A DNA stretch of 25,512 bases from a virus (lineage: Duplodnaviria; Heunggongvirae; Uroviricota; Caudoviricetes): the IMG/VR virus record IMGVR_UViG_3300029461_000006; one strand, given 5' to 3'. Made by a program: the position numbers and the translations under genes. How positions within the stretch are numbered: position 1 is the first letter of the stretch; each line of letters begins with the position of its first letter. Shown piece after piece: positions 1 to 24,932 of the stretch. The notes below the pieces were generated by a model. The model had not been told where the DNA came from and did no database searches. It saw only the letters and a program-made list of their open reading frames with translations.

Positions 1-2
1 AT

Positions 3-1267: not shown

Positions 1268-1274
1268 TAGAAGA

Positions 1275-1296
1275 ATGCCCGGTTGATGCCGGGCAT
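1275..1296. terminator. Hairpin (ATGCCCGG-loop-CCGGGCAT) between the convergent ant and c1 genes; candidate bidirectional terminator
   Basis: Perfect 8-bp inverted repeat with a 6-nt loop, lying between the ant stop (1267) and c1 stop (1300), followed by A/T-rich sequence. Confidence 0.4.
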
Positions 1297-1299
1297 AAT

Positions 1300-2151
1300 T
1301 TATTGCGCGCTTTCGGGGTTGTCGTTTACTGGCTGCCCCTTCTTGGTTTTACGGCTGCGCGTAACTGATGCGGCTGACTTAACCTTTTTCTCTTCGCGAG
1401 TGATGGCAATTTGTTTTTTTACATTTTCAATATCTGCCAGGCGATATATTTTTGCTTGCGGCCAGCGGTCGCAGATGATCGGTTCTATGGAGTCATAAAG
1501 GCTAAATTTTGCTTTTTCGAATTCACCGTTGATGATAATTCCATCACGGAGAGTTTCATCGCAGATAAACACGCCACACAGTGGCACATGGTAACTAACT
1601 GATTTACCATCATTGTAGTTAGGGCTACTGGAAATGTAGTGGACGCGCAGCATTGTTTCGCTAAAGCCGTGTACGCGCATACGGAATTTTTCATCCTCCG
1701 GGTACTGCTTCATTAGCTCTTTTGTTGCTTCCAGGTTCTCTATGTATTTCGCACTGTGCTCATTGATCCCCGCGCTTTTTTGGATGCGAATGTCCTTATC
1801 AATCAGATGAATAATGCGGCCAGCGGTCATGTTGACGCTGTTCACAGCTTCTGTCTGATAAGTTGTAACCTTACGCACACCGCGAAGGATGTTAGGCACT
1901 GGATATAAAATAGTCTTTGGGATATTGAGGTCTGGATACTGTTCCAGTTCCCGCGCCATTAAAGTCCATTTATCAATTTCAGCCTGAATGCTGTCCGTTT
2001 CTTTGAACGGCAGAACGACAACCGGGCGAACAGGACGACCGTCGCTGGCGGCATCAACGTGTTGGGCGCGTGCAACAGCTTTTTTTAGAAAGAGATCCCT
2101 GAAGCTGACGAACTCCTGGTACAGTTGTTCGCCGTAGACATAATTTATCAT
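1300..2151 (-). CDS. c1: C1 repressor of lysis (primary immunity repressor, ImmC)
   Basis: 283-aa ORF recognised as the P1 C1 repressor (MINYVYGEQLYQEF…); strong GGAGGAGG RBS; followed upstream by coi and 17-bp C1 operators. Confidence 0.92.
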   Translation of the reverse strand: MINYVYGEQLYQEFVSFRDLFLKKAVARAQHVDAASDGRPVRPVVVLPFKETDSIQAEIDKWTLMARELEQYPDLNIPKTILYPVPNILRGVRKVTTYQTEAVNSVNMTAGRIIHLIDKDIRIQKSAGINEHSAKYIENLEATKELMKQYPEDEKFRMRVHGFSETMLRVHYISSSPNYNDGKSVSYHVPLCGVFICDETLRDGIIINGEFEKAKFSLYDSIEPIICDRWPQAKIYRLADIENVKKQIAITREEKKVKSAASVTRSRKTKKGQPVNDNPESAQ

Positions 2152-2261
2152 TGATCCTCCTCCAGAATTGACATGGCCAACAACTCACAGCGGATTACAC
2201 TGGGAGTTGTTGGCCACCATTATAGAAGGATCCAACGAAAATAATAGATTTATTAGTGCAT

Positions 2262-2471
2262 TTATTGTGAGTCTGGCTGGTTAGTGGCCATGAGATATTC
2301 GATTGTGTCAGTGAGATCATCCAGGTCGTCTTGGGTGATGCGGTACTCCTGATTGGATATCTTTGAGTAGTGTTCAGCAATGGCGCGGGCAGCGTCGGTT
2401 TCGGCGGGGTCTACAGATAAAGCGTTAGAGCAATGTCTAACGTCGTCGATGGTTGGTGGAATGAAAGCCAT
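2262..2471 (-). CDS. coi: Coi, C1 inactivator
   Basis: 69-aa ORF directly upstream of c1 on the same strand, matching the P1 coi-c1 operon layout and size. Confidence 0.7.
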   Translation of the reverse strand: MAFIPPTIDDVRHCSNALSVDPAETDAARAIAEHYSKISNQEYRITQDDLDDLTDTIEYLMATNQPDSQ

Positions 2472-2709
2472 AATTATGCCTCACTGTATTGACAACACAG
2501 AGCCTGAAGCTCTGACCTACTGTTTCACCCATGATCCATGCTGGGGTAATCTAACAACATTGCGCTGTGTGTAAGATGAGCAATGCATAGCTGTAATGCC
2601 GTTGTATAAGGTTTCCCTGTTTGCTCATTTCCTTCTGAGCCGCTCTACAACGCTGAAGACACATTAAATAGTGAATCCAAAGTCGTATTACGAAACGGCG
2701 GCAAAACTA

Positions 2710-2726
2710 TAATTTATTAGAGCAAT
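2710..2726 (-). promoter_or_regulatory. C1 operator (Op99-type), minus strand
   Basis: Reverse complement reads ATTGCTCTAATAAATTA, 16/17 to the P1 C1 operator consensus ATTGCTCTAATAAATTT. Confidence 0.75.
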
Positions 2727-2792
2727 TGTCAAACAACTATGAAAAACAATCCAGTTTTTGGCTGGTGGAGTGGGATTTTTCTCTCAAAATTT

Positions 2793-2809
2793 ATTGCTCT
2801 AATAATTCT
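2793..2809 (+). promoter_or_regulatory. C1 operator (Op99-type), plus strand
   Basis: ATTGCTCTAATAATTCT, conserved ATTGCTCTAAT core; pairs with the operator at 2710-2726 upstream of coi-c1. Confidence 0.7.
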
Positions 2810-2852
2810 TGATTTTTATGCGCAGCTGGACGTAAACTCCTCTTCGGACCTA

Positions 2853-2886
2853 ATAACTTCGTATAGCATACATTATACGAAGTTAT
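2853..2886. other. loxP: loxP site-specific recombination site (34 bp)
   Basis: Exact ATAACTTCGTATA-GCATACAT-TATACGAAGTTAT: two 13-bp inverted arms around the 8-bp asymmetric spacer, about 420 bp upstream of cre. Confidence 0.97.
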
Positions 2887-2905
2887 ATTAAGGGTTATTG
2901 AATAT

Positions 2906-2978
2906 GATCAATTTACCTGTAAATCCATACAGTTCAATACCTTAGCAGGTCAAATAGTGATCACTTGATCATTTGATC
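2906..2978. promoter_or_regulatory. GATC (Dam site) cluster in the cra/cre upstream region
   Basis: Four GATC sites, three of them within 21 bp (2958-2978); consistent with the Dam-sensitive cre promoter described for P1. Confidence 0.45.
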
Positions 2979-2984
2979 AAGGTT

Positions 2985-3043
2985 GCGCTACGTAAAATCT
3001 GTGAAAAATTGGCGGTGTTAGTCCTACAGATTTCGCGTAGCGC
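2985..3043. repeat. Imperfect 18-bp inverted repeat (16/18) with a 23-nt spacer upstream of cra
   Basis: GCGCTACGTAAAATCTGT … ACAGATTTCGCGTAGCGC, read directly from the sequence. Confidence 0.6.
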
Positions 3044-3075
3044 ACTTAGCACCACCAATCAATCAGAGGTGAAAA

Positions 3076-3297
3076 ATGGGATATTCAACTGCTAAAGTGT
3101 CCACTCATCTTGAGCTTGAGAAAAACCGTGGTTACTGGCGGGCAAAAGGGTTTGATCGTGATAGTTGCCAACTGTCATTATCGCGCGGTGAAGAGAAAAT
3201 AGAACGCACGCGCGGTCGCTGGCGTTTCTATGACGAGAACCATAAACAGGTAAAGGCAGAGCCGATCCTGTACACTTTACTTAAAACCATTATCTGA
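3076..3297 (+). CDS. cra: Cra (cre-associated) small protein
   Basis: 73-aa ORF between loxP and cre, ending 8 nt before the cre ATG; matches the P1 position and size. Confidence 0.55.
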   Translation: MGYSTAKVSTHLELEKNRGYWRAKGFDRDSCQLSLSRGEEKIERTRGRWRFYDENHKQVKAEPILYTLLKTII

Positions 3298-3304
3298 GTG
3301 TTAA

Positions 3305-4336
3305 ATGTCCAATTTACTGACCGTACACCAAAATTTGCCTGCATTGCCGGTCGATGCAACGAGTGATGAGGTTCGCAAGAACCTGATGGATATGTTCAGG
3401 GATCGCCAGGCGTTTTCTGAGCATACCTGGAAAATGCTTCTGTCCGTTTGTCGGTCATGGGCGGCATGGTGCAAGTTGAATAACCGGAAGTGGTTTCCCG
3501 CAGAACCTGAAGATGTTCGCGATTATCTTCTATATCTTCAGGCGCGCGGTCTGGCAGTGAAAACTATCCAGCAACATTTGGGCCAGCTAAATATGCTTCA
3601 TCGTCGGTCCGGTCTGCCACGACCAAGTGACAGCAATGCTGTTTCACTGGTCATGCGACGGATCCGAAAAGAAAACGTTGATGCCGGTGAGCGTGCAAAA
3701 CAGGCGCTGGCGTTCGAACGCACTGATTTCGACCAGGTTCGTTCACTCATAGAAAATAGCGATCGCTGCCAGGATATACGTAATCTGGCATTTCTGGGGA
3801 TTGCTTATAACACCCTGTTACGTATAGCCGAAATTGCCAGGATCAGGGTCAAAGATATCTCACGTACTGACGGTGGGAGAATGTTAATCCATATTGGCAG
3901 AACGAAAACGCTGGTTAGCACCGCAGGTGTAGAGAAGGCACTTAGCCTGGGGGTAACTAAACTGGTCGAGCGATGGATTTCTGTCTCTGGTGTAGCTGAT
4001 GATCCGAATAACTACCTGTTTTGCCGCGTCAGAAAAAATGGTGTTGCCTCGCCATCATCCACCAGCCAGCTATCAACTCGCGCCCTGGAAGGGATTTTTG
4101 AAGCAACTCACCGATTGATTTACGGAGCTAAGGATGACTCTGGCCAGAGGTACCTGGCCTGGTCTGGACACAGTGCCCGTGTCGGTGCCGCGCGAGATAT
4201 GGCCCGCGCCGGAGTTTCAATACCGGAGATCATGCAAGCTGGTGGCTGGACCAACGTAAATATTGTCATGAACTACATTCGTAACCTGGATAGTGAAACG
4301 GGGGCAATGGTGCGCCTGCTGGAAGATGGCGATTAG
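3305..4336 (+). CDS. cre: Cre tyrosine site-specific recombinase
   Basis: 343-aa ORF recognised as Cre (MSNLLTVHQNLPALPVDATSDEVRKNLMDMFRDRQAFSEHTWKMLLSVCRSWAAWCKLNNRKWFPAEPEDVRDYLLYLQARGLAVKTIQQHLGQLNMLHRRSGLPRPSDSNAVSLVMRRIRKEN…); adjacent loxP. Confidence 0.98.
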   Translation: MSNLLTVHQNLPALPVDATSDEVRKNLMDMFRDRQAFSEHTWKMLLSVCRSWAAWCKLNNRKWFPAEPEDVRDYLLYLQARGLAVKTIQQHLGQLNMLHRRSGLPRPSDSNAVSLVMRRIRKENVDAGERAKQALAFERTDFDQVRSLIENSDRCQDIRNLAFLGIAYNTLLRIAEIARIRVKDISRTDGGRMLIHIGRTKTLVSTAGVEKALSLGVTKLVERWISVSGVADDPNNYLFCRVRKNGVASPSSTSQLSTRALEGIFEATHRLIYGAKDDSGQRYLAWSGHSARVGAARDMARAGVSIPEIMQAGGWTNVNIVMNYIRNLDSETGAMVRLLEDGD

Positions 4337-4353
4337 CCGTTCATTTGCGCCCG

Positions 4354-4370
4354 ATTGCTCTAATTATTTG
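4354..4370 (+). promoter_or_regulatory. C1 operator immediately downstream of cre
   Basis: ATTGCTCTAATTATTTG, conserved operator core; 17 nt upstream of the ORF at 4387. Confidence 0.7.
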
Positions 4371-4386
4371 ATATTTATGGTGACAT

Positions 4387-4698
4387 ATGCGGAAGGATTT
4401 CAAAATAGACGGAAAATATGTGGTGCTGTCTGTAAGCTCTCAAATTCAGTCACCATCTGTCATTGTCACCGTAAAGTTGAGCGATAGGATGCCTGATATC
4501 GACTCGATATCTGTTGCGTTCCCCGTTAAAAGCATGCGGAGTGCTGAACATTTTGTGCTGAATGCAACGGAGGAGGAAGCGCGGCGCGGGCTTACTAGAG
4601 TGATGGCGGAATTTGGCGAACTCCTGGGTAAGGTAAACAATTCCCTTTCAATCAGTTCAGCAAGATCCAAAGCGTTAACAGCTTCCTTGATGAAATAA
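4387..4698 (+). CDS. Hypothetical 103-aa protein in the position of P1 c8
   Basis: ORF between cre and ref preceded by a C1 operator; no motif I recognise. Assignment to c8 is positional only. Confidence 0.35.
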   Translation: MRKDFKIDGKYVVLSVSSQIQSPSVIVTVKLSDRMPDIDSISVAFPVKSMRSAEHFVLNATEEEARRGLTRVMAEFGELLGKVNNSLSISSARSKALTASLMK

Positions 4699-4828
4699 AA
4701 AAGCCTGGCAAGGAGCCAGGCTACACAAAAGAGCGGGTTTGTATTCCGCATCCAATCAATCAAGAAGGAGTATAGCACACAGGTACTGAAGTGAAAAAAT
4801 GTGATTCGCGATAAACAAAATATCTACC

Positions 4829-4858
4829 ATTGCTCTAATTGATTGCTATAATTGAGCC
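4829..4858 (+). promoter_or_regulatory. Tandem overlapping C1 operators with an embedded TATAAT (ref promoter region)
   Basis: ATTGCTCTAATTGATTG (4829-4845) overlapping ATTGCTATAATTGAGCC (4842-4858); TATAAT at 4847-4852. ref is known to be C1-controlled in P1. Confidence 0.7.
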
Positions 4859-4912
4859 GCAGTTTTTGTCAACTACGAAGACGTTGCCATTACTTAACTC
4901 CTTGACATCATT

Positions 4913-4938
4913 GGCGGCCATCAGGCCGCCTTTTTTTT
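4913..4938 (+). terminator. Intrinsic-terminator-like hairpin with a T8 tract, ending 5 nt before the ref ATG
   Basis: GGCGGCC-ATCA-GGCCGCC followed by TTTTTTTT. Confidence 0.6.
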
Positions 4939-4943
4939 GCCAT

Positions 4944-5504
4944 ATGAAAACAATCGAACAAAAAATTGAACAGCACCGTAAGTGGCAGAAGGCAGCCAGA
5001 GAACGAGCGATCGCTCGGCAACGGGAGAAGTTGGCTGATCCGGCCTGGCGAGAATCTCAATATCAGAAAATGCGGAATACTATCGACCGCCGTATCGCTA
5101 AACAGAAAGAGCGCCCACCAGCCAGCAAAACGCGGAAAAGCGCGGTAAAGATAAAATCTCGTGGCTTGAAGGGGCGAACACCGACAGCGGAGGAACGGAG
5201 CATCACCAATGCTCTTGGCGCTCTCCCCTGCATTGCCTGCTACATGCATGGAGTAATATCTGAAGAGGTATCTCTGCACCATATCTCCGGTCGTACCGCG
5301 CCGGGTTGTCACAAAAAGCAATTGCCCCTTTGTAGATGGCACCACCAGCATGCAGCACCGGCTGAAGTAAGAGAAAAATTCCCCTGGCTGGTCCCTGTTC
5401 ATGCTGATGGTGTGGTTGGAGGCAAGAAAGAATTCACCTTGCTGAACAAGTCAGAGATGGAGTTGCTGGCTGACGCCTATGAAATGGCAAACATCATGCA
5501 CTAA
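4944..5504 (+). CDS. ref: Ref recombination-enhancement protein (HNH-family nuclease)
   Basis: 186-aa product starting MKTIEQKIEQHRKWQ…; Cys/His-rich HNH-like segment (CIACYMHG…HHISGR…CHKKQLPLCRWHHQH). The longer 221-aa ORF in the track starts at a TTG inside the operator and is unlikely. Confidence 0.88.
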   Translation: MKTIEQKIEQHRKWQKAARERAIARQREKLADPAWRESQYQKMRNTIDRRIAKQKERPPASKTRKSAVKIKSRGLKGRTPTAEERSITNALGALPCIACYMHGVISEEVSLHHISGRTAPGCHKKQLPLCRWHHQHAAPAEVREKFPWLVPVHADGVVGGKKEFTLLNKSEMELLADAYEMANIMH

Positions 5505-5542
5505 TAAATATATTATTTTTAATCTTAAATGATTGACAACTG

Positions 5543-5552
5543 ACAAGTGACT
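5543..5552 (+). promoter_or_regulatory. ACAAGTGACT motif upstream of mat (candidate late-promoter box)
   Basis: The same core recurs upstream of prt/darB (21128-21148) and, reverse-complemented, upstream of lyz (24864-24873). Confidence 0.3.
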
Positions 5553-5570
5553 TGAGTCAGAATCATCACA

Positions 5571-5633
5571 CGCCCGGTACGGATGGATCCCTTTTCAAAT
5601 ATTCCATGGACGGCACAGTCTGAGTACCGGGCG
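5571..5633. repeat. Perfect 10-bp inverted repeat (CGCCCGGTAC … GTACCGGGCG) with a 43-nt spacer in the mat leader
   Basis: Read directly from the sequence. Confidence 0.6.
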
Positions 5634-5655
5634 CTACCTTCAGTTGTATTGCTAA

Positions 5656-5680
5656 GCCGCCGCTGGTGGCTTTTCTTTTT
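5656..5680 (+). terminator. Hairpin plus T-rich tract 14 nt upstream of the mat ATG (terminator or attenuator candidate)
   Basis: GCCGCC-GCT-GGTGGC (one G-U pair) followed by TTTTCTTTTT. Confidence 0.35.
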
Positions 5681-5693
5681 TATAGGGGGCGCT

Positions 5694-6335
5694 ATGGATA
5701 AGAAAATATGCGTTGTTTCGATGAGCGTCGGTAAACCGGCGTCAATGACTGCTGCATGGATCAACAACGAGTTGATAATGGCTGAGCGGACCAGCTACCC
5801 TGAACGCCGCCGCGATATGGAACTCCAGCTGCTGCGCGAATTGCGAGAAAAAGAGGAAAAGGGTTTTATCGTGCTGGTGGAAGAGGAAAACAGCTTTATT
5901 ACGGGTCGAGTTGGCCAGCGTGTAAGGTTGCGCGATCCCTTCATGAACGGCAGGCCGGTACTAATTGAAGCAATGCAGATTTACAAGGAGCTGGAACGCC
6001 AGAAAGCAATCAAGTTACCGCGCAAGGAATCCGGCAAATACATCCTCCACCAAAGCATCTTCGATTCCGAACACGATAAAAAAGGCGATGAATTTTTCAA
6101 CATCAACTGGAGCGAAATAACGACAGAGCATGTTCTGACGTTACTATGTTGCTTTGCGACGGAATACAACAACGTTGCAAGCGCCGACTACATCAGGGCA
6201 ATGGCTGGAGAAGTTGAGGCACGCCAGGAACCATCGTTACTAAGCCCTCTGATTAACATAATTCGCGGCACACAGAGACTTGCGGAAAAAAGAGTTCCAC
6301 ACGGAATCTTAACTGGAAAGGGAAACTATTTTTAA
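5694..6335 (+). CDS. mat: Mat (maturation control) protein
   Basis: Product starting MDKKICVVSM… with a GGGGG RBS; sits after ref as in P1. The track ORF starts earlier (5583) at a weaker start. Confidence 0.75.
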   Translation: MDKKICVVSMSVGKPASMTAAWINNELIMAERTSYPERRRDMELQLLRELREKEEKGFIVLVEEENSFITGRVGQRVRLRDPFMNGRPVLIEAMQIYKELERQKAIKLPRKESGKYILHQSIFDSEHDKKGDEFFNINWSEITTEHVLTLLCCFATEYNNVASADYIRAMAGEVEARQEPSLLSPLINIIRGTQRLAEKRVPHGILTGKGNYF

Positions 6336-6368
6336 CATCCCCAAATCCTTTTGGGGAACAACTCATGC

Positions 6369-6680
6369 TTACAATTTCTGCCCCATACATTTTCTCCAGG
6401 CACTCCCCTCATTACCGTTGCCGAGGAAAGTAGAGGTTGCATATGGAATGCCTCTGATTTGTGTTGATGTGAATGGACCATCAGACGTCGAAGTTGTGCG
6501 CAGTTTTGATGTAAACTCGTAATTTCCACTGATGCCTTTCTCTGCCAGAGCTTTTGATTTTGTGATAACTAAATCTGCACATTTCTCTGCGGCTACATAT
6601 TGCGGGTCTTTTTCAGCTTTTCCGGCACATGCAGTTATCGTTAAAACAATAGCTGCGGCTAACAAATTACCTGGTTTCAT
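6369..6680 (-). CDS. Small predicted lipoprotein (103 aa), divergent from the ImmI-like operon
   Basis: N-terminal signal peptide with lipobox (MKPGNLLAAAIVLTITAC|AGK); AAGGT RBS; no recognisable catalytic motif. Confidence 0.6.
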   Translation of the reverse strand: MKPGNLLAAAIVLTITACAGKAEKDPQYVAAEKCADLVITKSKALAEKGISGNYEFTSKLRTTSTSDGPFTSTQIRGIPYATSTFLGNGNEGSAWRKCMGQKL

Positions 6681-6785
6681 CTGAATACCTTATTAAGTGC
6701 ATTAAAAACAGTAGGTTGCCAAGGTTTTAAACAAATTTCAATTCCCCATGACGCTCAACATGAGCAAAAATAACACACAAACATC

Positions 6786-6802
6786 ATTGCTCTAATTAAT
6801 TT
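6786..6802 (+). promoter_or_regulatory. C1 operator (Op51-like) at the head of the ImmI-like operon
   Basis: ATTGCTCTAATTAATTT, 16/17 to consensus; candidate sigma70 promoters follow (TTGATC 6844-6849 / TATAGT 6867-6872, 17-bp spacer). Confidence 0.7.
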
Positions 6803-6930
6803 GATTTTTTAGGTCAAATAAACTACCATTGCGCACTGCCCTATTGATCTCCTTACCGTTCAGGCTTATAGTTCCTACGTCGTAGCAAATTCTGCGACCG
6901 GGTTTAGCAGCCTGAATGTACATGCGGACA

Positions 6931-6960
6931 ACCGCAGATATCCGATATTGCGGTATTTTT
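6931..6960 (+). terminator. Hairpin plus T5 tract between the a1/b1 boxes and the c4 candidate (attenuator or terminator candidate)
   Basis: ACCGCAGATAT-CCG-ATATTGCGGT (one bulged G) followed by ATTTTT. Confidence 0.3.
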
Positions 6961-6990
6961 GTGTCCGTAAAACCACGTTACGCCCGAATT

Positions 6991-7070
6991 ATGGTGGGGC
7001 GTGATGGGGAGGCTTCGGCCTGCTGGTTTCATGTACGCCAGTCTGCTAACCCCGTCACGTCCTGCCACCC
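6991..7070 (+). ncRNA. c4: Candidate c4-type antisense RNA (secondary immunity repressor); boundaries approximate
   Basis: About 80-nt segment closed by GGTGG/CCACC; contains CATGTAC (7030-7036) and CTGCTAAC (7043-7050), complementary to the repeated TGTACATG and GTTTAGCAGC boxes at 6902-6924 and 7071-7108, the latter overlapping the icd RBS. Confidence 0.45.
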
Positions 7071-7119
7071 GTTTAGCAGCGGGTAGCAGGTTGTTAAACC
7101 TGTACATGAGGCCGTAACT

Positions 7120-7341
7120 ATGGTTAATGCCAATCCTTGCGCACGCCCGGAATTCATCTGGCGTTTCTATTCTTGTCAAAAACGTCACTATCACTTCGTT
7201 ATCGCACCGACAGAAGATGAGGCCCGCTCTCAGCTTCCTGACGCCCCATGTATTTTCTCTGCCCGTTTTTCCACTGATTCACGCAATTCTCTCAGTTACT
7301 GGTGCCTCCCTGTTAACGCTTCTGCTCAGGAGGGACTATGA
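7120..7341 (+). CDS. icd: Icd-like small protein, translationally coupled to ant
   Basis: 73-aa ORF with a GAGG RBS inside the a2/b2 target region; stop overlaps the ant start (ATGA). A 78-aa alternative in another frame (7127-7363) overlaps ant by 26 nt and fits the coupled layout less well. Confidence 0.5.
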   Translation: MVNANPCARPEFIWRFYSCQKRHYHFVIAPTEDEARSQLPDAPCIFSARFSTDSRNSLSYWCLPVNASAQEGL

Positions 7342-8480
7342 GAACATCGTTAGTTACCCGTGAAGAGATGATCGAGGCAATTGAACAGCACACTGCCTGT
7401 ATCAGTACCAGGGATATACCTGGCGTTATTGCCAACTACTTCATGATCACCAAACAACTTTACCGGAGAAAGGACAAGAACGCTGTTCACCGTATCCTGC
7501 TGTCTGATATCCGTGAATACCTGCTCGAACAGGGGCATCTGAATTACGCAACCGTCGCAGCCGAAACACGCAAGGAGGCACACAGAATGAAAGCAACTAA
7601 CTTTAAATCAGAAAAAATTCATGCACCTTCAGTTCAGGAATCGGAGCTGGTGGTTGTTCAGGATCAGCATGATGAAATTCCCGTTCTGGAGTGGCAGGGG
7701 GTGCGTGTAGTGACAACCGAGACTCTTGCTAAAGGGTATGGGACAGAAACAATCCGTATTCGCCAGAATCATCATGAGAACAAAGTGCGCTTTGTTGAAG
7801 GGAAGCACTTTTTCAAGGTTATTGGCGATGAGCTGAAAAATTTGCGGGTAGCTTTAAACTACTCACAAAATCCAGTCTCACCCAAAGCCCGCTCACTCAC
7901 TCTCTGGACAGAACGCGGCGCTGCCCGCCACGCTAAAATGCTCGAAACCGATCAGGCATGGGCGTTCTTTGAAAAACTGGAAGACAGCTACTTCCGACAA
8001 AAAGAACAGCAACCGATCGCAATCCCCCAGACGCTTCCCGAAGCACTGCGCCTGGCTGCCGAACTGGCTGAACAAAAGCAACTATTGGAACAGAAAGCCC
8101 ACCAGCTAAATCAGCAGCTGGTGGCCGCCGCTCCTAAAGTCGAGTTTGCCGACCGGGTATCAGTAGCTAAAGGGATCCTGATTGGGAATTTTGCAAAGGT
8201 TGTTGGACTTAAGCAAAACGCGCTGTTTGCCTGGTTACGGGAGAACGGCATCCTGATAGCGTCCGGTGGACGTAAAAATGTGCCGTTCCAGCAGTACATC
8301 AACGCGGGGTATTTCACGGTGAAAGAAGTGGTGCTGGATGATGAAGATGGCTACCAGATACGGTTGACGCCTCAATTAACGGGTAAAGGCCAGCAGTGGT
8401 TGACGCGTAAACTGCTCGATGCTGGCTTGTTAAAACCGGTGGCGGCTCAATAATGGAAGAATGCCCGGTTGATGCCGGGC
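7190..8480 (+). repeat. Copy B of the ~1.29-kb diverged direct repeat (icd 3' end + ant + hairpin)
   Basis: Collinear with 1-1294; differences include a clustered divergent patch at 7820-7906 (copy A 631-720). Confidence 0.9.
7338..8453 (+). CDS. ant1: Phage antirepressor (Ant-like, KilAC-type), copy B, within a complete ImmI-type module
   Basis: 371-aa ORF with an AGGAGGG RBS; same family as 149-1267; internal in-frame Met as a candidate Ant2 start; preceded by operator, c4 candidate and icd. Confidence 0.75.
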   Translation: MRTSLVTREEMIEAIEQHTACISTRDIPGVIANYFMITKQLYRRKDKNAVHRILLSDIREYLLEQGHLNYATVAAETRKEAHRMKATNFKSEKIHAPSVQESELVVVQDQHDEIPVLEWQGVRVVTTETLAKGYGTETIRIRQNHHENKVRFVEGKHFFKVIGDELKNLRVALNYSQNPVSPKARSLTLWTERGAARHAKMLETDQAWAFFEKLEDSYFRQKEQQPIAIPQTLPEALRLAAELAEQKQLLEQKAHQLNQQLVAAAPKVEFADRVSVAKGILIGNFAKVVGLKQNALFAWLRENGILIASGGRKNVPFQQYINAGYFTVKEVVLDDEDGYQIRLTPQLTGKGQQWLTRKLLDAGLLKPVAAQ

Positions 8481-8483
8481 AAA

Positions 8484-8492
8484 GGGGGGGGG
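8484..8492. repeat. G9 homopolymer at the junction between the ant terminator and the lxc relic
   Basis: Nine consecutive G; the equivalent position next to intact lxc (13623-13626) has GGGG. Confidence 0.95.
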
Positions 8493-8494
8493 AA

Positions 8495-8595
8495 TTAATC
8501 AGCATTCAGGAGCAATGCGTTATCTATGATGATCTGCTCCCATTCTTCGAATGCCCGATCGCGGACGCCCTAGGGAACACTGTCTGTTTTGAAAT
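8495..8595 (-). pseudogene. Relic of the lxc 3' end (last ~33 codons) with an in-frame stop, abutting the res 3' end
   Basis: 101 nt at about 90% identity to 13631-13731. Minus-strand translation gives FKTDSVP*GVRDRAFEEWEQIIIDNALLLNAD* against lxc FKTNSVPQGVRDRAFEEWEQIIIDNALLLNAD*; 8 of the 10 differences are synonymous. Confidence 0.6.
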
Positions 8596-8626
8596 AAGGA
8601 GGTTTTCACCTCCTTTTAAACTGGAA

Positions 8627-11539
8627 TTATGGTAATGCGCTCTTGATTAGCTGATAAATATCATCATTAGCAAACTGCGTTCTGAATTCAACTTTAACAG
8701 ACCGACTTATTTGATTGAAAAGCGCCTGGGCATGTTCAATTTTCCGTTTTTCTTCAAGCCGTAAACTATCCTTACTATCTACGTTTTTTGTTTCAATGAT
8801 AAAGTTAAGATAATCACCTTCTGCTGTTTTTACAACATAAGCAAAATCGGGTGAGTAAGTGTATCCACCAGCTACCGGGATCTTAATAGAATTCTTCGGT
8901 ATCTTTGAAAAAACAACAACAGACTGGATCTCTCTATCTGTTATATTACGCCTTTCAAGCTCTGAATCATAAAAAACTTCTTCAAAAAGATAAGTATCTA
9001 ATGGTGCTTTTGCATTATCCTGCAATACACCAAGATCACTTGATAATACCTCATCTAGAGGATTACCATCAGCATTTGTGAACTTTGTAGGATGAATTGA
9101 ACCCGAAATCAAATTATATCCGAGGCTGAATTTGTTAAACGAATTGTTCAACAAATACTTACTAAAACCAGATTTAATTTTTCTGATTGTTTGAATATTA
9201 AGGTATTCAGTGATATTAATAGTGTCTTTTATATCACAAAAAACTTTATGTAAAGTATCGTGTTTAACAAAAATAGTTTGTGATAAGTTATCGAGAAACT
9301 CTCGATAGCTCATTGTGTTTAGCTTAGCAAAGTCATCGTCATCACTGACAATGCTTTTCGACATTGCCATATCATTGTGGATGTAAATTTTATCAATGCG
9401 AGTATGAACGCCTGATTTGGTAAATCGTTCTGTTTCTTCGAGCATGAATGACTTGAAAATGGATAAAAATTCACTTTCACTGTTTATTTTGTACTCAATC
9501 ACCGCTTTTTGATTGATCAAATCCCATAGTTCTTTCAGCTCACTGAACTTACCAACACGCATTTTAGTGCGTCTTTTTCCATCAGTAGCTTTTTTGATTT
9601 TACCAGGTTTCACTCCTATAGGGAATGCTGCTGGATATTTGGATTTTAAGCGGCTATATGCATCTGAATCTTTGAAATTATCATTGTCATCAATGATTTC
9701 ATCATTGAAAAGTTCATTCATTAGTGCTCTGGATGAAAGCTCAGGATACTGAGCCCTGATTTGTTCCTTAAGCTCTTGAGTAAACTTACTTGGAACCCTT
9801 TCTTTGAAAGAACTCTCGTTGACCTCTTTAACAAGTGAGTCAACAAAATCTTTTTCTGTAAAATCAACATAATAGTTGAGAGTGAAATTGCGATCTTTCA
9901 CTCGACACATGTATTCATTCACAGGAAGACGCAAACCGCGCCCTACCTCTTGAAGCTTAGATGTGGTACTACCGCTCGAACGGAGCTTACAGATCTGAAA
10001 GACATTAGGATTATCCCACCCCTCACGCAACGTCCATTTTGAGAAAATAAACCGACGGGGATTATCTAAAGACAGCAAAAGCTCTTTGTCATGAAGGATT
10101 TCGTTGATTTCCTGCTCGATTTTATCATCCTTATCACTGTTATCTTTTGAGAAATAACCACCATGAACGGAAGATATATCTTTGACTGTTTTTTCAAGAT
10201 AGTTTTTATAAAACGCATCTTGCTCTGTTTTTAACAGTTCATTAGCTTCTGCCAGAACGTATTCTTCGAATTTGGTTTTCAGGCTTCCGGCAATATCATT
10301 ACCGTCACGATAGCCTTCAATATCGTCAATAAAGAAAAGAGTAAGAGGCTTTATGCGTGGCCTTTGTGTCAGAAGTTCTTTTTCTAACTTAAAGTGTTCT
10401 TTGACAGCCTTACGCATCATATTATCAGCAAGTGTCTGATCGTAAGAATAGGGATTTATTGAGCTACCAATCTTCAGCTCAATACCATTACTCAACACTG
10501 CTGTGCTCTTGTTTAAAGCATCAAGAGTTAAATCATGGATCGCACTATGCGTCTTAGACAGTGATTCACCTTTAGCTAACTTAAACGTTTTTTTATTGTT
10601 GTTTTCATTCAGTTCAAATGTAGCTTCTTTTCCGTCAGATTTGACGAATTTGAGGTTTGCGTTACCATCGCCGACTATATCCTCAATATATGCATCAATA
10701 CCTTTAACGAGATCCTCGTTAAATGCGTCCACGGCTGTAAGACGATAAACCAGGTTCTTATAGCCTTCGCTAAAGGTTGCGCCATAGCGGATAATATATT
10801 GTGCGTTAAATTTCTCTATGTTTTCCCATGTTTTTTTACCAGTAGGAAATCTATGTGGTTCGTCAATGATGATAAATGGTTTTACAGCTCTGAGCGCGTC
10901 AACTGGAGTATTAAACTGATTATCAAGCAAGCCAGTATCGTAAGTATCCGTTAAAGACTTAGAGTTGATCATTCCTGAGTTAATAACAAGAACGTGTATA
11001 TATTTTTTATTGAAGTTACTTGCTTCAACAAAATCATGTATAGCCTGAGGCATATACGATTTTGTATTTTTGCCAGAGTTTTTCTGACTTTCAACAACGT
11101 AAGTTCTCAGCTCACGCTCGTAATCATCCCGGAAGTGTTCTTTTAAAGCATCACTTTTTAAAAAGTTAACGGTTCCGGCCTTGATAGATAGAGTCGGAAC
11201 AATGATGATAAACTTGTTAATACCAAATGATTTATTCAGGTCAAAAATAGTTTTGGTATAGGTGTACGTCTTGCCTGTACCTGTCTCCATAGAAACATCA
11301 ATGATGTTGCTTTTAGCATCGTAATTATCTTTTGAGTGCTCAATACCATTAAACTCCTGAACATTTTTTATGTTGTTGTAGTATTGTTGTTCAGATAGTT
11401 CCAGTTCTGGATTAGCTAACAGGCGAATAGTAACATTATCCGTCAGGTGAGGTATTGCGGAAACAAAAACATTCATCACCGCATCGACTCCGGCTTTCTG
11501 ATGCGGCAAGTTCTTTTCGAGAGTGAACCCTTTTGACAT
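8627..11539 (-). CDS. res: Type III restriction-modification Res subunit (SF2 helicase/endonuclease, EcoP1I-type)
   Basis: 970-aa ORF recognised as P1 Res; Walker A (METGTGKTY) and DEPH box (IIIDEPHRF); start lies 2 nt after the mod stop (translational coupling). Confidence 0.93.
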   Translation of the reverse strand: MSKGFTLEKNLPHQKAGVDAVMNVFVSAIPHLTDNVTIRLLANPELELSEQQYYNNIKNVQEFNGIEHSKDNYDAKSNIIDVSMETGTGKTYTYTKTIFDLNKSFGINKFIIIVPTLSIKAGTVNFLKSDALKEHFRDDYERELRTYVVESQKNSGKNTKSYMPQAIHDFVEASNFNKKYIHVLVINSGMINSKSLTDTYDTGLLDNQFNTPVDALRAVKPFIIIDEPHRFPTGKKTWENIEKFNAQYIIRYGATFSEGYKNLVYRLTAVDAFNEDLVKGIDAYIEDIVGDGNANLKFVKSDGKEATFELNENNNKKTFKLAKGESLSKTHSAIHDLTLDALNKSTAVLSNGIELKIGSSINPYSYDQTLADNMMRKAVKEHFKLEKELLTQRPRIKPLTLFFIDDIEGYRDGNDIAGSLKTKFEEYVLAEANELLKTEQDAFYKNYLEKTVKDISSVHGGYFSKDNSDKDDKIEQEINEILHDKELLLSLDNPRRFIFSKWTLREGWDNPNVFQICKLRSSGSTTSKLQEVGRGLRLPVNEYMCRVKDRNFTLNYYVDFTEKDFVDSLVKEVNESSFKERVPSKFTQELKEQIRAQYPELSSRALMNELFNDEIIDDNDNFKDSDAYSRLKSKYPAAFPIGVKPGKIKKATDGKRRTKMRVGKFSELKELWDLINQKAVIEYKINSESEFLSIFKSFMLEETERFTKSGVHTRIDKIYIHNDMAMSKSIVSDDDDFAKLNTMSYREFLDNLSQTIFVKHDTLHKVFCDIKDTINITEYLNIQTIRKIKSGFSKYLLNNSFNKFSLGYNLISGSIHPTKFTNADGNPLDEVLSSDLGVLQDNAKAPLDTYLFEEVFYDSELERRNITDREIQSVVVFSKIPKNSIKIPVAGGYTYSPDFAYVVKTAEGDYLNFIIETKNVDSKDSLRLEEKRKIEHAQALFNQISRSVKVEFRTQFANDDIYQLIKSALP

Positions 11540-11541
11540 GA

Positions 11542-13500
11542 TTAGTTCCTCACCACCAAATCTAACTCAATAGATTTTTTATTAGCATAACTTTTTAGTG
11601 CTTCATTGAGTTCCATTTGCTTTGCGCTTTCAAAGTTGCTGCCATAAAACACGATTTTGTTTGGAGCAAAGTCTTTGTCTGAATCCACCTTTTGAAGTAA
11701 CGCTTTCAATGCTTCGCTAGTAAAATTAGGTGCAATCAAATACAGACGACCATCGCACAAATGTGCTTTGTAGCCACCAAGATCAACATCTTCAATAGGT
11801 GTTGTTAGCAAACTGCCATCATACAGGCACCATGTAGTTAATAGAGTGTCATATTGTTCAGGCGTCAAGACAACATCATCAAAGAATGTATGATTAGACA
11901 GTGTAAGTTCTGATTCGTCTTTAGCGCGAAAATCTGGCATTAATTGGTAAATTTTAAAGCCAAACTTACCACTTCCCTCACAAACTCTAATTAATCTTTC
12001 TTTGGTTAGGTCATAAATGGTTTTAAAACCATGCTTAAAAGCATCAGAATTATCTTTTGTATCCTCATCTAATTGAACAGTTATGAATTGATAATTCATG
12101 CCTTTTTCTTTGTTTAAGTTTAAAATAGCATGCGCTGTTGTACCCGAACCTGCAAAAAAATCCAATACAATACCTTTGCCATCACATGCAAAAGAGATCA
12201 ATTCTTCAAGTAGTTTAATGGTTTTAGGGTTAGTGAAAGGCTTAGTCATTTCAGGGAAAATTGCTTTTAGCTCATTAGCCCCGGCTCGACCATCAATATT
12301 AATAACAGAACTTAACTTCTGCTTATAGTCTTTAGCATAAACCTTTATTTCCACTAATTTATTTTCATCTTCACCAAAGATAATCCGCCCATCATCAATC
12401 ATTTTTAGCATAGTAGCTTCAGGGAAGCGATATCCCATCAAAGGCTGCTTGCAAGGTTTCTTTGTTATTGGATGAATAATATCATACCGATATCCTTCTT
12501 TACCGGGGTTATGAATCCCCCTCTCCCCAGAATATACACCTTTACGGTCTATGAACTTATAATTTTCCAGAGGCCATAATTGACTTTTGTTTTCTCTAAA
12601 CCACTTTGTGTACTCTTCCTGTAATTTTTCGTCATCTTTTATGTCATTAATTAATGAATCCCCTACTTCAACAAGCAAATCCTTTACATCTGAGATGTTT
12701 GACTTCCACTCAGTTTCAATTAATTCTTTATTTCTAGCATAAACAACAATATATTCATGTTCTACAGCAATGTTCGACGGATTGTTATCTGTAACATTTT
12801 TCCAGACGATGTCTCCGATGTGATTTTGTTCACCAAAAATCTCATCGCAAACTAGCTTTAATTGACTAAACTCATTGTCATCAATAGAAATAAAAATAGT
12901 CCCATCTTCTCTCATTAATTCACGAGCAATATAAAGGCGTGGGTAAATGAATGTCAGCCATGCACTATGACTGCTTGACCCCTTGGTGGTAAATTCTAAT
13001 ATGCGTTTAGCCTCATCGAGGTCGATGCCTGCAAGTTCAGAAAGCTGCTCAGGTGTAAATTTGCGATCATCATTATAAACGAACCCATCCTTACCTGTAT
13101 TGTATGGTGGGTCAATGTAAATCATCTTCACCTTTTCAGCGTAAGCATTAACCATATGCTTCAATACTTCGAGATTATCCCCTTTGATTAACAGGTGTTG
13201 ACTGTTCTTGTTCTCTTCTTGTTGGTTATGTGTTTTATCTTCTGCCAACAACGTTTTCGGTGGTAGATTGGCCAACAAACGGGCATAAGATTTACCCAGC
13301 CAGTTTAAGCTGTATGATTCTCTAGAGAGTTCAACCTCCGATGCTCTAATAATCTCAAGCAATTTTTCTTGAATGAAGGCTCCGTTTTTATCAAAACACT
13401 GTGGGAAATTAGCTTTCAACACAGCCAGTTGCTTGCTGTTAGCCGTTTCTACTTCGGAAAAAATCGTTTCTTTTTTCATATCCATTTTAAACCAGATCAT
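11542..13500 (-). CDS. mod: Type III restriction-modification Mod subunit (N6-adenine DNA methyltransferase, EcoP1I-type)
   Basis: DPPY motif (IYIDPPYN) and AdoMet-binding FxGxG (FFAGSGTT); directly upstream of res. True start may be an internal Met (MDMKKET… or MKKET…), since the track ORF is slightly longer than the roughly 646 aa I recall for P1 Mod. Confidence 0.92.
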   Translation of the reverse strand: MIWFKMDMKKETIFSEVETANSKQLAVLKANFPQCFDKNGAFIQEKLLEIIRASEVELSRESYSLNWLGKSYARLLANLPPKTLLAEDKTHNQQEENKNSQHLLIKGDNLEVLKHMVNAYAEKVKMIYIDPPYNTGKDGFVYNDDRKFTPEQLSELAGIDLDEAKRILEFTTKGSSSHSAWLTFIYPRLYIARELMREDGTIFISIDDNEFSQLKLVCDEIFGEQNHIGDIVWKNVTDNNPSNIAVEHEYIVVYARNKELIETEWKSNISDVKDLLVEVGDSLINDIKDDEKLQEEYTKWFRENKSQLWPLENYKFIDRKGVYSGERGIHNPGKEGYRYDIIHPITKKPCKQPLMGYRFPEATMLKMIDDGRIIFGEDENKLVEIKVYAKDYKQKLSSVINIDGRAGANELKAIFPEMTKPFTNPKTIKLLEELISFACDGKGIVLDFFAGSGTTAHAILNLNKEKGMNYQFITVQLDEDTKDNSDAFKHGFKTIYDLTKERLIRVCEGSGKFGFKIYQLMPDFRAKDESELTLSNHTFFDDVVLTPEQYDTLLTTWCLYDGSLLTTPIEDVDLGGYKAHLCDGRLYLIAPNFTSEALKALLQKVDSDKDFAPNKIVFYGSNFESAKQMELNEALKSYANKKSIELDLVVRN

Positions 13501-13622
13501 TTAGCAACAAAGCGCCGCCTCCCCAGCCCGTTAGAGCCAGAAGTTGTGGCACTATCACTATCTATATGTTTGAAGAATCGTGCTTCTTTGAGCGATGCTC
13601 GGTGAGCAAACAGCCATAATTT

Positions 13623-13731
13623 GGGGAAGTTTAATCCGCATTGAGAAGCAATGCATTATCTATGATGATCTGCTCCCATTCTTCGAATGCCCGGTCACGG
13701 ACGCCCTGGGGAACGCTGTTAGTTTTGAAAT
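13623..13731. repeat. Direct-repeat partner of 8486-8595 (authentic lxc 3' end plus downstream sequence)
   Basis: Together the two copies bracket the mod-res cassette in direct orientation. Confidence 0.85.
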
Positions 13732-13879
13732 CGACGACCGTACGCCATTTCCCGTCCGGACGGTACATGCGCAGAGCTTTACTTCCCCCTTCCCTGCGCA
13801 CCTCAACGTTATGCTTGTCAGCAAACTCTTGTAATGCTCGTAGCGTCCCATGCTTTACTGTGTAGTATCGCTTTTTCAA
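13631..13879 (-). CDS. lxc: Lxc/Bof, modulator of C1 repressor binding (ImmT)
   Basis: 82-aa ORF of the size and position (between mod and ulx/darB) of P1 lxc; overlaps the ulx stop by 4 nt. Confidence 0.7.
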   Translation of the reverse strand: MKKRYYTVKHGTLRALQEFADKHNVEVRREGGSKALRMYRPDGKWRTVVDFKTNSVPQGVRDRAFEEWEQIIIDNALLLNAD

Positions 13880-14316
13880 GTTTTCTCTCCAGCCTGTGCC
13901 AAGGCTTCAACTTCCAAATCGTAAGACTCAAACTCATAGTACTGGTCGTCAACTTCTTCAGGCACTGGCAGTAAATGCCAGGCTGAGTATATCTGACCAT
14001 TATCAAAACGCTCCTGGCTGTAGAGCGTCGCGGCTATGAGCGTCAGCGCCGGGCGGTCATAACGGTAAATTTTGCGAACGTCACGGTCAACGAGACGACC
14101 GAAATTACCATAACCGCGCTCCAGTAATAATTTTTTAATTTCCGGCCAGTATGGACCATAGCTGCGGTACAGGCGGGGATTTTTCAGTAATCGCCCGCGT
14201 AGCCCTGACAGGAAGAAATCAACGTATTCGTCTTCTGTCTTTCCTAACAACGCTGTACGGAGTACCGCCTCAAGATATGTTTTATTCGGTTTTATTGTAT
14301 CAGATAGTGTGGCCAT
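13876..14316 (-). CDS. ulx: Ulx (upstream of lxc) protein
   Basis: 146-aa ORF between darB and lxc on the same strand, as in P1. Confidence 0.65.
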   Translation of the reverse strand: MATLSDTIKPNKTYLEAVLRTALLGKTEDEYVDFFLSGLRGRLLKNPRLYRSYGPYWPEIKKLLLERGYGNFGRLVDRDVRKIYRYDRPALTLIAATLYSQERFDNGQIYSAWHLLPVPEEVDDQYYEFESYDLEVEALAQAGEKT

Positions 14317-24873: not shown

Positions 24874-24896
24874 GCTACGTTTCAAAGATATACATT

Positions 24897-24913: not shown

Positions 24914-24932
24914 ATTTTATTAGGTAAGAAAA

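What the first reader, a model, noticed from the sequence alone, without database searches (positions are those of the whole stretch)
8486..8595. The res-mod cassette is bracketed by ~110-bp direct repeats; one copy is a nonsense-disrupted lxc relic with synonymous-dominated divergence
The 3' end of lxc (13631-13731) recurs at 8495-8595, immediately 3' of res, at about 90% identity. Of 10 substitutions, 8 are synonymous in the lxc frame, one is N to D and one creates a stop (Q to *). That pattern indicates the relic came from a different, once-functional lxc allele rather than a recent local duplication. This marks a recombination scar where a type III restriction-modification cassette and/or the ImmI module was exchanged, and the repeats could mediate precise loss of the cassette.
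Basis: seen in the sequence. Interest (0 to 1): 0.58.

Follow-up and report, generated by a model that had tools for sequence, protein, structure and literature searches.

The report
lxc relic beside P1-type restriction cassette
A 101-base dead copy of the end of the phage P1 gene lxc sits next to a restriction-modification cassette, and with the intact lxc it forms direct repeats that can explain how related phage-plasmids gain or lose the cassette; it is a real, well-supported example of a known kind of recombination scar.

Summary
Window 8495-8595 repeats the 3' end of lxc (13631-13731) at 91/101 identity. The 10 differences are 8 synonymous changes, N54D and Q58* (pN/pS 0.066).

All 8 synonymous states are standing polymorphisms among 97 full-length lxc genes. 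The two damaging states occur in 0 of 97. The relic is therefore the tail of a different, once-functional lxc allele, of the type carried by plasmids without the R-M system.

The relic|res junction is not unique to this window and not universal. P1, P7 and most R-M-positive relatives lack it; 9 of 78 res-carrying PLSDB plasmids have it. It occurs in five different cargo contexts, and each context has an R-M-less counterpart in which the same cargo runs into an intact lxc.

R-M-less siblings of this window (L004, L098, L100) differ from it by exactly the 5,136-bp repeat-bounded segment. Their lxc is relic-like at sites 7-25 and lxc-like from site 64, which places a crossover in the 38-nt identical core. 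Whether that event was gain or loss is unresolved.

This fits the known class "R-M insertion with long target duplication", inside the known P1 variable region RD-1. Interest is modest.

The parts
8495..8595 (-). lxc relic: the last 101 nt of an lxc gene (the last two bases of codon 50, codons 51-82 and the stop codon). It has no start codon or 5' part and carries Q58* (A at 8572) and N54D (C at 8584).
8520..8557 (.). 38-nt core that is identical in both repeat copies (partner at 13656-13693). It is the inferred crossover interval.
   Evidence: alignment. One search shows that all window-versus-L004 differences in the repeats lie outside this core (8558-8585 and 13637-13655).
8462..8481 (.). 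GC-rich hairpin between ant and the relic. It is the native sequence downstream of the R-M-less-type lxc and belongs to the cargo side.
   Evidence: -15.9 and -13.8 kcal/mol on the two strands, z about -3. It is contiguous with an intact lxc in L004. The consensus terminator scan did not call it.
8596..8615 (-). Left end of the res-mod cassette: a hairpin just downstream of res (AAGGAGGU-GAAA-ACCUCCUU). Similarity to P1-type cassettes starts here.
   Evidence: (P1-type matches start at window 8592/8593)
8627..11539 (-). res, the type III restriction subunit (970 aa; ResIII helicase and endonuclease domains).
   Evidence: It is 100% identical to L006 and 92% to P1 res.
11542..13500 (-). mod, the type III methyltransferase (652 aa). 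The central region 11973-12881 matches L005/L049 but is only 62-78% identical per 200-nt bin to L006 and 38-56% to P1-type L021/L015.
   Evidence: The exact protein is listed in 249 blocks of the collection.
13501..13630 (.). mod-lxc spacer (the P1 record annotates its mod promoters P1mod and P2mod at the homologous position). It is 100% identical to P1-type plasmids L021/L015.
13631..13879 (-). Intact lxc (82 aa). Its last 101 nt (13631-13731) are the right-hand repeat copy. Its haplotype at the ten variable sites, CGAAGAGGTA, is shared with the widespread P1-type R-M-positive plasmids.
6336..8453 (+). Cargo in the mat-lxc hotspot: a second ImmI-like module. It comprises a hypothetical ORF 6369-6680 (minus strand), c4-a1b1 6866-6918, C4 RNA 6987-7072, icd 7120-7341 and ant 7338-8453.
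   Evidence: The same module abuts an intact lxc in L004, L098 and L100.
5583..6335 (+). mat, the left border of the variable interval known as RD-1.

Best explanation
The window is a P1-like phage-plasmid. Its mat-lxc interval, the known variable region RD-1, holds two cargo units in tandem. The first is a second c4-icd-ant (ImmI-like) module followed by the last 101 nt of its own lxc. The second is an EcoP1I-family type III res-mod cassette followed by a complete lxc.

The relic is the tail of an lxc allele of the kind carried by plasmids without the R-M system. The join of relic position 101 to the base of the hairpin downstream of res arose once, in an ancestor shared with some E. albertii and E. 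coli plasmids (inferred). After that the relic acquired N54D and Q58*.

Since then the relic has acted as a homology arm. Ordinary homologous recombination between it and any lxc 3' end, mostly within the 38-nt identical core, moves the cassette into backbones with different cargo or deletes it precisely. R-M-less siblings of this window differ from it by exactly that 5,136-bp repeat-bounded segment.

Shown: the relic's allelic origin, the shared junction, the occupied and empty site pairs, and the crossover interval. Inferred: that RecA-type recombination is the agent, and the direction of the latest event. I put loss by deletion at about 55-60%, gain at about 25-30%, and a plain inter-plasmid crossover within lxc at about 15%.
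For: The repeat and its codon pattern are confirmed. The 8 synonymous states are polymorphic in 97 full-length lxc genes, whereas A78 (Q58*) and C90 (N54D) occur in 0 of 97. No full-length lxc among 699 PLSDB plasmids comes closer than 3 mismatches in 80 to a probe that joins relic positions 56-101 to the next 34 nt of intact lxc.

The outer sites 7, 13, 16 and 25 read ACGG or a near variant (T7, A16 or A25) in nearly all R-M-less lxc genes and in most relics. Every R-M-linked lxc carries C7, A16 and A25.

The same relic|res junction is present in 9 PLSDB plasmids and 4 RefSeq E. coli plasmids, of which two (AP018809, AP027182) are in both sets. P1, P7, all 7 R-M-positive IMG/VR loci and the 9 P1-type contigs encoding the identical Mod (L088-L091, L093-L097) lack it and have mat-75 bp-res.

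The relic-bearing plasmids carry different cargo to the left of the relic: one hypothetical gene in L002 and L005, SIR2 in L003, HTH plus EAL in L006, and ImmI in the window. Each has R-M-less counterparts in which the same cargo runs into a full lxc. Every relic-type locus has extra cargo and every P1-type locus has none.

The window and L004 show only about 9 differences over window 2000-8483. There are then 6 differences at 8558-8585, 4 at 13637-13655, and a single difference up to 14712. L004, L098 and L100 all carry lxc = ACGG|GAGGTA, which is the relic's outer half joined to the lxc inner half. A67 is found in 16 of 23 R-M-positive but only 3 of 74 R-M-less lxc genes, which favours an R-M-positive origin for that allele.

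The cassette contains no transposase or integrase. No inverted repeats were found, and loxP occurs only at 2853-2886.
Against: Direction is not resolved. Integration of an excised circle, or unequal crossing-over with a relic-bearing donor, gives the same sequences as deletion.

The R-M-less allele ACGGGAGGTA differs from the commonest R-M-less allele (ACGGGGGGTA, 14 loci) at only one of the ten sites. Within the repeat itself, the mosaic argument therefore rests largely on site 67 plus the near-identity of the flanks.

Presence or absence could also be shuffled onto different backgrounds by crossovers in the long flanks without using the repeats. The scattered position of R-M-less members among R-M-positive ones therefore does not prove repeated events.

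The way the first relic|res join formed is unknown. It could have been an illegitimate join between two plasmids, or a true long target duplication that was later overwritten by allele exchange. No experiment shows recombination at this site.
Confidence: 0.8

Rival explanations
1. True long target duplication. When res-mod first inserted, a single 109-bp target (the lxc tail plus 8 nt) was duplicated from one molecule, giving two identical copies. The present differences arose later, through gene conversion or exchange with other lxc alleles.
For: The repeat extends 8 nt beyond the stop codon on both copies, as a duplicated target would. The layout meets the published criteria for the class. 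Relics differ among plasmids in a mosaic way; the L003 relic, for example, carries lxc-like inner states. That shows later exchange does occur.
Against: The four outer sites separate cleanly by R-M status in more than 100 sequences. All differences except two are pre-existing polymorphisms. A join between two different alleles explains this more simply. P1-type cassettes have the same right-hand junction but no left copy.
Confidence: 0.15
2. The R-M-less siblings are ancestral, and this window's lineage recently gained the cassette. The route would be integration of an excised circle, or unequal crossover with a relic-bearing donor, within the 38-nt core.
For: All 13 PLSDB plasmids and all 7 RefSeq plasmids with mat-ImmI-lxc lack R-M. 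The window's cassette interior (about 9100-13500) has no differences from widespread P1-type plasmids, consistent with a recent import. The predicted products match the window exactly.
Against: Among contigs encoding the identical Ant2 protein, 8 of 10 places are R-M-positive. The empty-site allele carries A67 and an R-M-linked right-hand haplotype. Gain needs a co-resident donor and either two crossovers or a circle, whereas loss needs one intramolecular event.
Confidence: 0.3
3. A recent local duplication of the lxc tail within this plasmid, followed by mutational drift.
For: The arrangement is a direct repeat flanking 5 kb.
Against: The two copies are 10% diverged, against about 0.1% divergence between the sibling plasmids in the flanks. 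Eight of the 10 differences are synonymous and are standing polymorphisms. The junction is shared with distant plasmids.
Confidence: 0.02
4. The relic is retained because it does something. It could act as the 3' untranslated tail or terminator context of res. Alternatively, read-through from ant could transcribe it into an RNA complementary to lxc mRNA.
For: The relic directly follows the res hairpin and supplies its AUUUC tail. ant is transcribed towards it, and the 38-nt core is perfectly complementary to lxc mRNA.
Against: P1-type cassettes function without it (P1 itself). Relics vary and accumulate private changes. A strong hairpin separates ant from the relic. No expression data are available.
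Confidence: 0.05
5. The arrangement is an assembly chimera at a repeat.
For: Metagenome contig L087 begins at the poly-G run just left of the relic, next to the 1.3-kb ant repeat.
Against: Independent assemblies span ant-relic-res (L092/L101, L099, L102-L107). Complete plasmids carry each junction separately.
Confidence: 0.01

Closest known systems
R-M gene complexes inserted with a long target duplication (class described for Helicobacter and extended to types I-IV, including type III in Campylobacter with repeats of about 106-208 bp; Furuta et al. 2010, PMC2853133)
   Same: res and mod alone make up a 5.1-kb insert with no mobility gene. The insert is flanked by direct repeats of about 100 bp, and related R-M-less genomes have a single copy of the repeat with the same flanks.
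   Different: Here the host is a phage-plasmid rather than a chromosome. The two copies demonstrably derive from two different alleles of a gene rather than from one duplicated target. One copy carries decay mutations. The same junction has spread to several cargo backgrounds.
Variable region RD-1 / 'region 1' (res-mod) of P1-like phage-plasmids (Venturini et al. 2019, PMC6906374; PMC9603915)
   Same: The interval is the same one, between mat and lxc, where res-mod is replaced by other ORFs in many relatives. A 'partial P1-lxc homolog' is noted in RD-1 of pTZ20_1P.
   Different: Neither paper, in the passages retrieved by my term searches (I did not read them in full), describes the relic|res junction, the direct repeats, or the occupied and empty site pairs. 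Here R-M and other cargo are stacked rather than being alternatives.
Phage P1 EcoP1I res-mod locus (NC_005856)
   Same: The gene order is the same (lxc, mod, res, convergent with mat). The right-hand junction is the same. res is 92% identical, and the mod-lxc spacer is 100% identical to P1-type plasmids L021/L015.
   Different: P1 has mat-44-bp spacer-res hairpin, with no relic and no other cargo. The central region of mod differs (38-56% identity to P1-type L021/L015), so the recognition sequence probably differs.
Exchange of defence cargo at phage and satellite hotspots by recombination in conserved flanks (P2/P4; PMC13586616, abstract only)
   Same: Conserved flanking genes frame a variable defence-gene slot, and swapping needs no dedicated recombinase.
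   Different: Here a fragment of one flanking gene has been copied inside the slot. That allows two cargos to be stacked and gives one of them its own excision and insertion homology.

Membership tests
R-M insertion with long target duplication (criteria in PMC2853133) | The inserted segment contains both R and M gene homologues. | tested here: met
   res has ResIII and RE_endonuc domains; mod has N6_N4_Mtase and T3RM_EcoP15I_C domains. Both lie between the repeats.
R-M insertion with long target duplication (criteria in PMC2853133) | The insert is shorter than 20 kb and contains no other mobile-element genes. | tested here: met
   The repeat spacing is 5136 bp. Only res and mod are credible ORFs. 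No inverted repeats were found, and no lox-like site lies nearby.
R-M insertion with long target duplication (criteria in PMC2853133) | The flanking direct repeats are longer than 30 bp. | tested here: met
   101 nt ungapped, or 109 nt with one gap.
R-M insertion with long target duplication (criteria in PMC2853133) | A related genome without the R-M system has one copy of the repeat, with both flanks conserved. | tested here: met
   L004, L098 and L100.
R-M insertion with long target duplication (criteria in PMC2853133) | Both copies derive from one duplicated target molecule. This is implied by the name and is not a formal criterion. | tested here: inconclusive
   The copies differ by 8 pre-existing allelic polymorphisms. 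This favours two parental alleles, but later allele exchange cannot be excluded.
Functional lxc (bof) gene | A complete 82-codon ORF with a start codon. | tested here: not met
   The relic has only the last 101 nt and carries a stop at codon 58.
Type III R-M system of the EcoP1I/EcoP15I family | A Mod methyltransferase with the EcoP15I C-terminal domain, a Res protein with helicase and endonuclease domains, and mod upstream of res. | tested here: met
   for the domains. res is 92% identical to P1 res. Enzyme activity was not tested.
Transposon or IS insertion with target-site duplication | A transposase, terminal inverted repeats and a short identical target duplication. | tested here: not met
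   No transposase, 0 inverted repeats, and a 101-nt repeat that is 10% diverged.
Site-specific (integrase or Cre) cassette | A recombinase site at both junctions. | tested here: not met
   The only lox site in the window is at 2853-2886. The cassette encodes no integrase.

The most novel reading that the evidence does not exclude
The relic-bounded res-mod unit behaves as a recombinase-free 'flip-in/flip-out' module. Recombination between the relic and lxc would release a 5.1-kb circle carrying one hybrid lxc tail. That circle, or the equivalent unequal crossover during co-infection, could enter the lxc tail of any P1-like plasmid. This would allow a restriction system to be stacked on top of whatever defence or immunity cargo already occupies the hotspot. 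It would be an active and recurrent route of defence-gene traffic between phage-plasmids, possibly stimulated by P1 Ref or by the restriction enzyme itself, rather than a passive scar.
Probability: 0.2. Interest if true: 0.55.

Novelty: new member of a known kind. Interest (0 to 1): 0.35.

Why it matters
P1-like phage-plasmids are widespread carriers of defence and resistance genes in Enterobacteriaceae. Their mat-lxc interval is a recognised hotspot, but how cargo is exchanged there has not been worked out at base-pair resolution.

This locus provides natural occupied and empty sites with a crossover mapped to a 38-nt interval. It also offers a scar that explains how a restriction system can coexist with a second cargo instead of replacing it, and a simple PCR assay for cassette loss.

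It adds a phage-plasmid example, with clear evidence of allelic origin, to the poorly understood class of R-M insertions flanked by long repeats. It does not reveal a new mechanism or a new gene.

Tried and rejected
- Exact-junction search (GTTTTGAAATAAGGAGGTTTTCACCTCC): 0 hits in IMG/VR and in the one-genome-per-species collection, and 1 metagenome hit. The relic type is rare in those sets.
- Probe for a full-length lxc carrying the relic's private states, which would have proved relic-to-lxc recombination at the inner end. The best of 699 PLSDB plasmids had 3 mismatches in 80. No such recombinant was found.
- Consensus terminator scan of 8300-8800 found nothing. The two hairpins rest on folding only.
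- lox-like sites near the junctions: none.
- No complete RefSeq E. coli genome has ant-relic-res together (0 places covering at least 80% of the query). The architecture was found only in draft and metagenome assemblies.
- I tried to polarise gain versus loss from flank distances among 12 Ant2-clade sequences. The clade is too recombinant for this, and flank crossovers could shuffle the presence/absence allele without using the repeats.
- The 2004 P1 genome paper is not held. One literature search failed on a term that was too short.
- Local duplication, transposon target duplication and assembly chimera were considered and rejected (see rival explanations).

Full report
**What the window is.** The window aligns over most of its length with phage P1, P7 and many P1-like phage-plasmids at 96-98% identity. 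From ORFs and the P1 annotation the map is:

| Feature | Coordinates |
|---|---|
| ant | 149-1267 |
| c1 | 1300-2151 (-) |
| loxP | 2853-2886 |
| cre | 3305-4336 |
| c8 | 4387-4698 |
| ref | 4839-5504 |
| mat | 5583-6335 |
| second ImmI-like module | see below |
| lxc relic | 8495-8595 |
| res | 8627-11539 (-) |
| mod | 11542-13500 (-) |
| lxc | 13631-13879 (-) |
| ulx | 13876-14316 (-) |
| darB | 14350-21117 (-) |

The second ImmI-like module comprises a hypothetical ORF 6369-6680 (-), c4-a1b1 6866-6918 and C4 RNA 6987-7072 (Rfam), icd 7120-7341 and ant 7338-8453.

**The observation.** The repeat is real.
- It is 101 nt long with 91 matches, spaced 5136 nt apart, and has sharp ends. BLAST gives E = 6e-35, and with one gap the repeat reaches 8 nt beyond the stop codon.
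- In the lxc frame the ten differences are eight synonymous changes, N54D and Q58*. This gives pN/pS 0.066 and Fisher p = 3.6e-5.
- The arrangement is not an assembly artefact. An independent metagenome contig is identical across relic and res. Another scaffold is 99.877% identical across 14.6 kb including ant-relic-res. Seven further draft-genome contigs show the same layout.

**Where the relic came from.** I collected 97 full-length lxc genes from 80 IMG/VR loci, PLSDB/RefSeq plasmids and draft genomes.
- At every one of the eight synonymous sites, the relic's state is a common polymorphism in functional genes.
- The two damaging states, A78 (Q58*) and C90 (N54D), occur in 0 of 97. No full-length lxc among 699 PLSDB plasmids comes closer than 3 mismatches in 80 to a probe joining relic positions 56-101 to the continuation of intact lxc.
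- The four variable sites nearest the stop codon separate by R-M status. Every lxc next to mod carries C7, A16 and A25. Nearly all lxc genes of R-M-less elements read ACGG or a near variant (T7, A16 or A25), and most relics do too.
- The relic is therefore the tail of an R-M-less-type allele plus two decay mutations. It is not a drifted local copy.

**How common the relic is, and where it sits.**
- P1 itself has only 75 bp between mat and res and no relic. P7 likewise shows no relic-length match beside res.
- The same is true of all seven R-M-positive IMG/VR loci and of the nine P1-type contigs encoding the identical Mod protein (L088-L091, L093-L097).
- In PLSDB, 78 plasmids carry this res 3' end and nine of them have the relic. 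Four RefSeq E. coli plasmids have it, two of which (AP018809, AP027182) are also in the PLSDB set.
- All relic-bearing loci share the same join: relic position 101 abuts AAGGAGG, the base of the hairpin that follows res. A single origin is the simplest reading.

**Cargo contexts.** The sequence to the left of the relic differs between plasmids: one hypothetical gene in L002 and L005, a SIR2 gene in L003, HTH plus EAL genes in L006, and the ImmI module in the window. For each context there are R-M-less elements in which the same cargo runs straight into a complete lxc:

| Relic-bearing locus | R-M-less counterpart | Identity |
|---|---|---|
| window | L004 | 98.9% |
| L002 | L029 | 96.6% |
| L005 | L029 | 98.5% |
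| L003 | L085, L081, L079, L017 and others | 97.3-99.1% |
| L006 | L039, L068 | about 91% |

In my sample every P1-type cassette is the only cargo between mat and lxc. Every relic-type cassette is stacked on another cargo.

**The empty site.** L004 is a complete E. coli plasmid with the same gene order as the window but without res-mod.
- Against the window it has about 9 differences over window 2000-8483.
- There are then 6 differences packed into 8558-8585 (the inner part of the relic) and 4 into 13637-13655 (the outer part of lxc).
- Only one further difference follows over the next 1 kb.
- Its lxc reads relic-like at sites 7-25 and lxc-like from site 64 onwards.
- Two more R-M-less members of this clade, L098 and L100, have the same allele. 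All eight R-M-positive members carry the relic ACGGAGAACT together with lxc CGAAGAG(GTA or ATT).
- The occupied and empty forms therefore differ by one reciprocal exchange within the 38-nt identical core, 8520-8557 against 13656-13693.
- From general knowledge, not tested here: 38 nt of perfect identity exceeds the roughly 25-nt minimum for efficient RecA-dependent recombination in E. coli, and P1 encodes Ref, which stimulates such recombination.

**Direction of the latest event.** Deletion from a window-like ancestor needs one intramolecular crossover.
- Favouring loss: site 67 = A occurs in 16 of 23 R-M-positive lxc genes but only 3 of 74 R-M-less ones. The empty-site allele carries it, along with a right flank typical of the widespread R-M-positive haplotype.
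- Favouring gain: all PLSDB and RefSeq plasmids with mat-ImmI-lxc lack R-M. The interior of the cassette has no differences from common P1-type plasmids, which looks like a recent import.
- Uninformative: R-M-less members are scattered among R-M-positive ones. The clade is highly recombinant, and crossovers in the long flanks could produce that scatter without using the repeats.
- I put loss at roughly 55-60%.

**The cassette itself is a mosaic.**
- res and the 3' end of mod are 100% identical to an E. albertii relic-type plasmid (L006).
- The central part of mod (11973-12881) matches L005/L049 but is only 62-78% identical per 200-nt bin to L006.
- The mod-lxc spacer is 100% identical to P1-type plasmids L021/L015.
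- Only the first ~500 bp next to the relic (7-8 differences against L088/L091, 2 against L095) distinguish the cassette interior (8592-13500) from P1-type plasmids carrying the identical Mod.

**Origin of the first join.** P1-type plasmids have a 44-bp spacer between the mat stop codon and the res hairpin. My pattern search found it only in R-M-positive P1-type loci. The relic type lacks it. Two origins remain open. One is an illegitimate join between the base of the res hairpin and position 101 of an R-M-less lxc. The other is a true long target duplication that was later overwritten by allele exchange.

**Comparison with what is known.**
- The interval is the published variable region RD-1 / 'region 1' of P1-like plasmids. 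One paper mentions a 'partial P1-lxc homolog' in RD-1 of another plasmid.
- The layout meets all four formal criteria of the class 'R-M insertion with long target duplication', which includes type III examples with repeats of about 100-200 bp.
- It is not a transposon or a site-specific cassette. It has no recombinase, no inverted repeats, and no lox site near the junctions.
- I found no description of this particular junction in the passages retrieved from the papers I could search.

**Verdict.** It is a clean, well-documented new example of a known kind of scar in a known hotspot. Its useful extras are the demonstrated allelic origin, the base-pair-level empty site, and the explanation of cargo stacking. 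Interest is modest at 0.35.

Noticed in passing
window 1-1295 and 7190-8481: There are two ant-containing ImmI-like modules in direct orientation, 96-98% identical and 7186-7189 bp apart. They bracket c1-coi-loxP-cre-c8-ref-mat, and recombination between them would delete the whole ImmC/lox-cre block. Relatives carry one copy, the other, or both (L099, L101, L102, L104, L106 and L107 lack the copy next to c1).
   Followed up: partly
window 11973-12881 (mod): The central part of mod is 99-100% identical to L005/L049, 62-78% identical per 200-nt bin to L006, and 38-56% to P1-type plasmids L021/L015. The rest of the cassette matches L006 at 100%. This looks like a swapped recognition domain, so the specificity is probably not that of EcoP1I. 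The exact protein is listed in 249 blocks of the public collection.
   Followed up: partly
window 8483-8491: There is a run of nine G between the ant hairpin and the relic. L004 has eight G. A metagenome contig (L087) begins inside the run, so it may be a slippage or assembly-break site.
   Followed up: no
L007-L086, interval between lxc and mat: The lxc-mat interval ranges from about 60 bp to more than 5 kb across 80 IMG/VR loci. Several length classes recur, and cargo boundaries often fall inside the last 30-130 nt of mat. It behaves as a multi-allelic cargo hotspot, and the cargo includes a SIR2-family gene.
   Followed up: partly
L002, L003, L005, L006 (E. albertii and E. coli relic-type plasmids): In these plasmids lxc is followed after about 300 bp by the portal gene. 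ulx and darB, the antirestriction genes, are absent.
   Followed up: no
L092/L101 positions 4361-9151 (L092 coordinates): In this otherwise near-identical scaffold, the gene in the position of darB (2255 aa) is called as a 1596-aa product with an SLT (lytic transglycosylase) Pfam hit. It ends at the same coordinate as darB. Similarity to the window stops at window 16120.
   Followed up: no
window 2785-2818, 4817-4853, 6778-6821, 24885-24932: These are repeated ATTGCTCTAAT-type motifs. The one at 4817-4853 corresponds to P1's annotated C1 operator Oref. One lies just upstream of the second c4-icd-ant module.
   Followed up: no
window 8453-8635 (+): A 60-aa ORF is called as a gene in one public assembly (L101). 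It is read antisense through the lxc relic and the res hairpin, has no Pfam match, and is probably spurious.
   Followed up: partly
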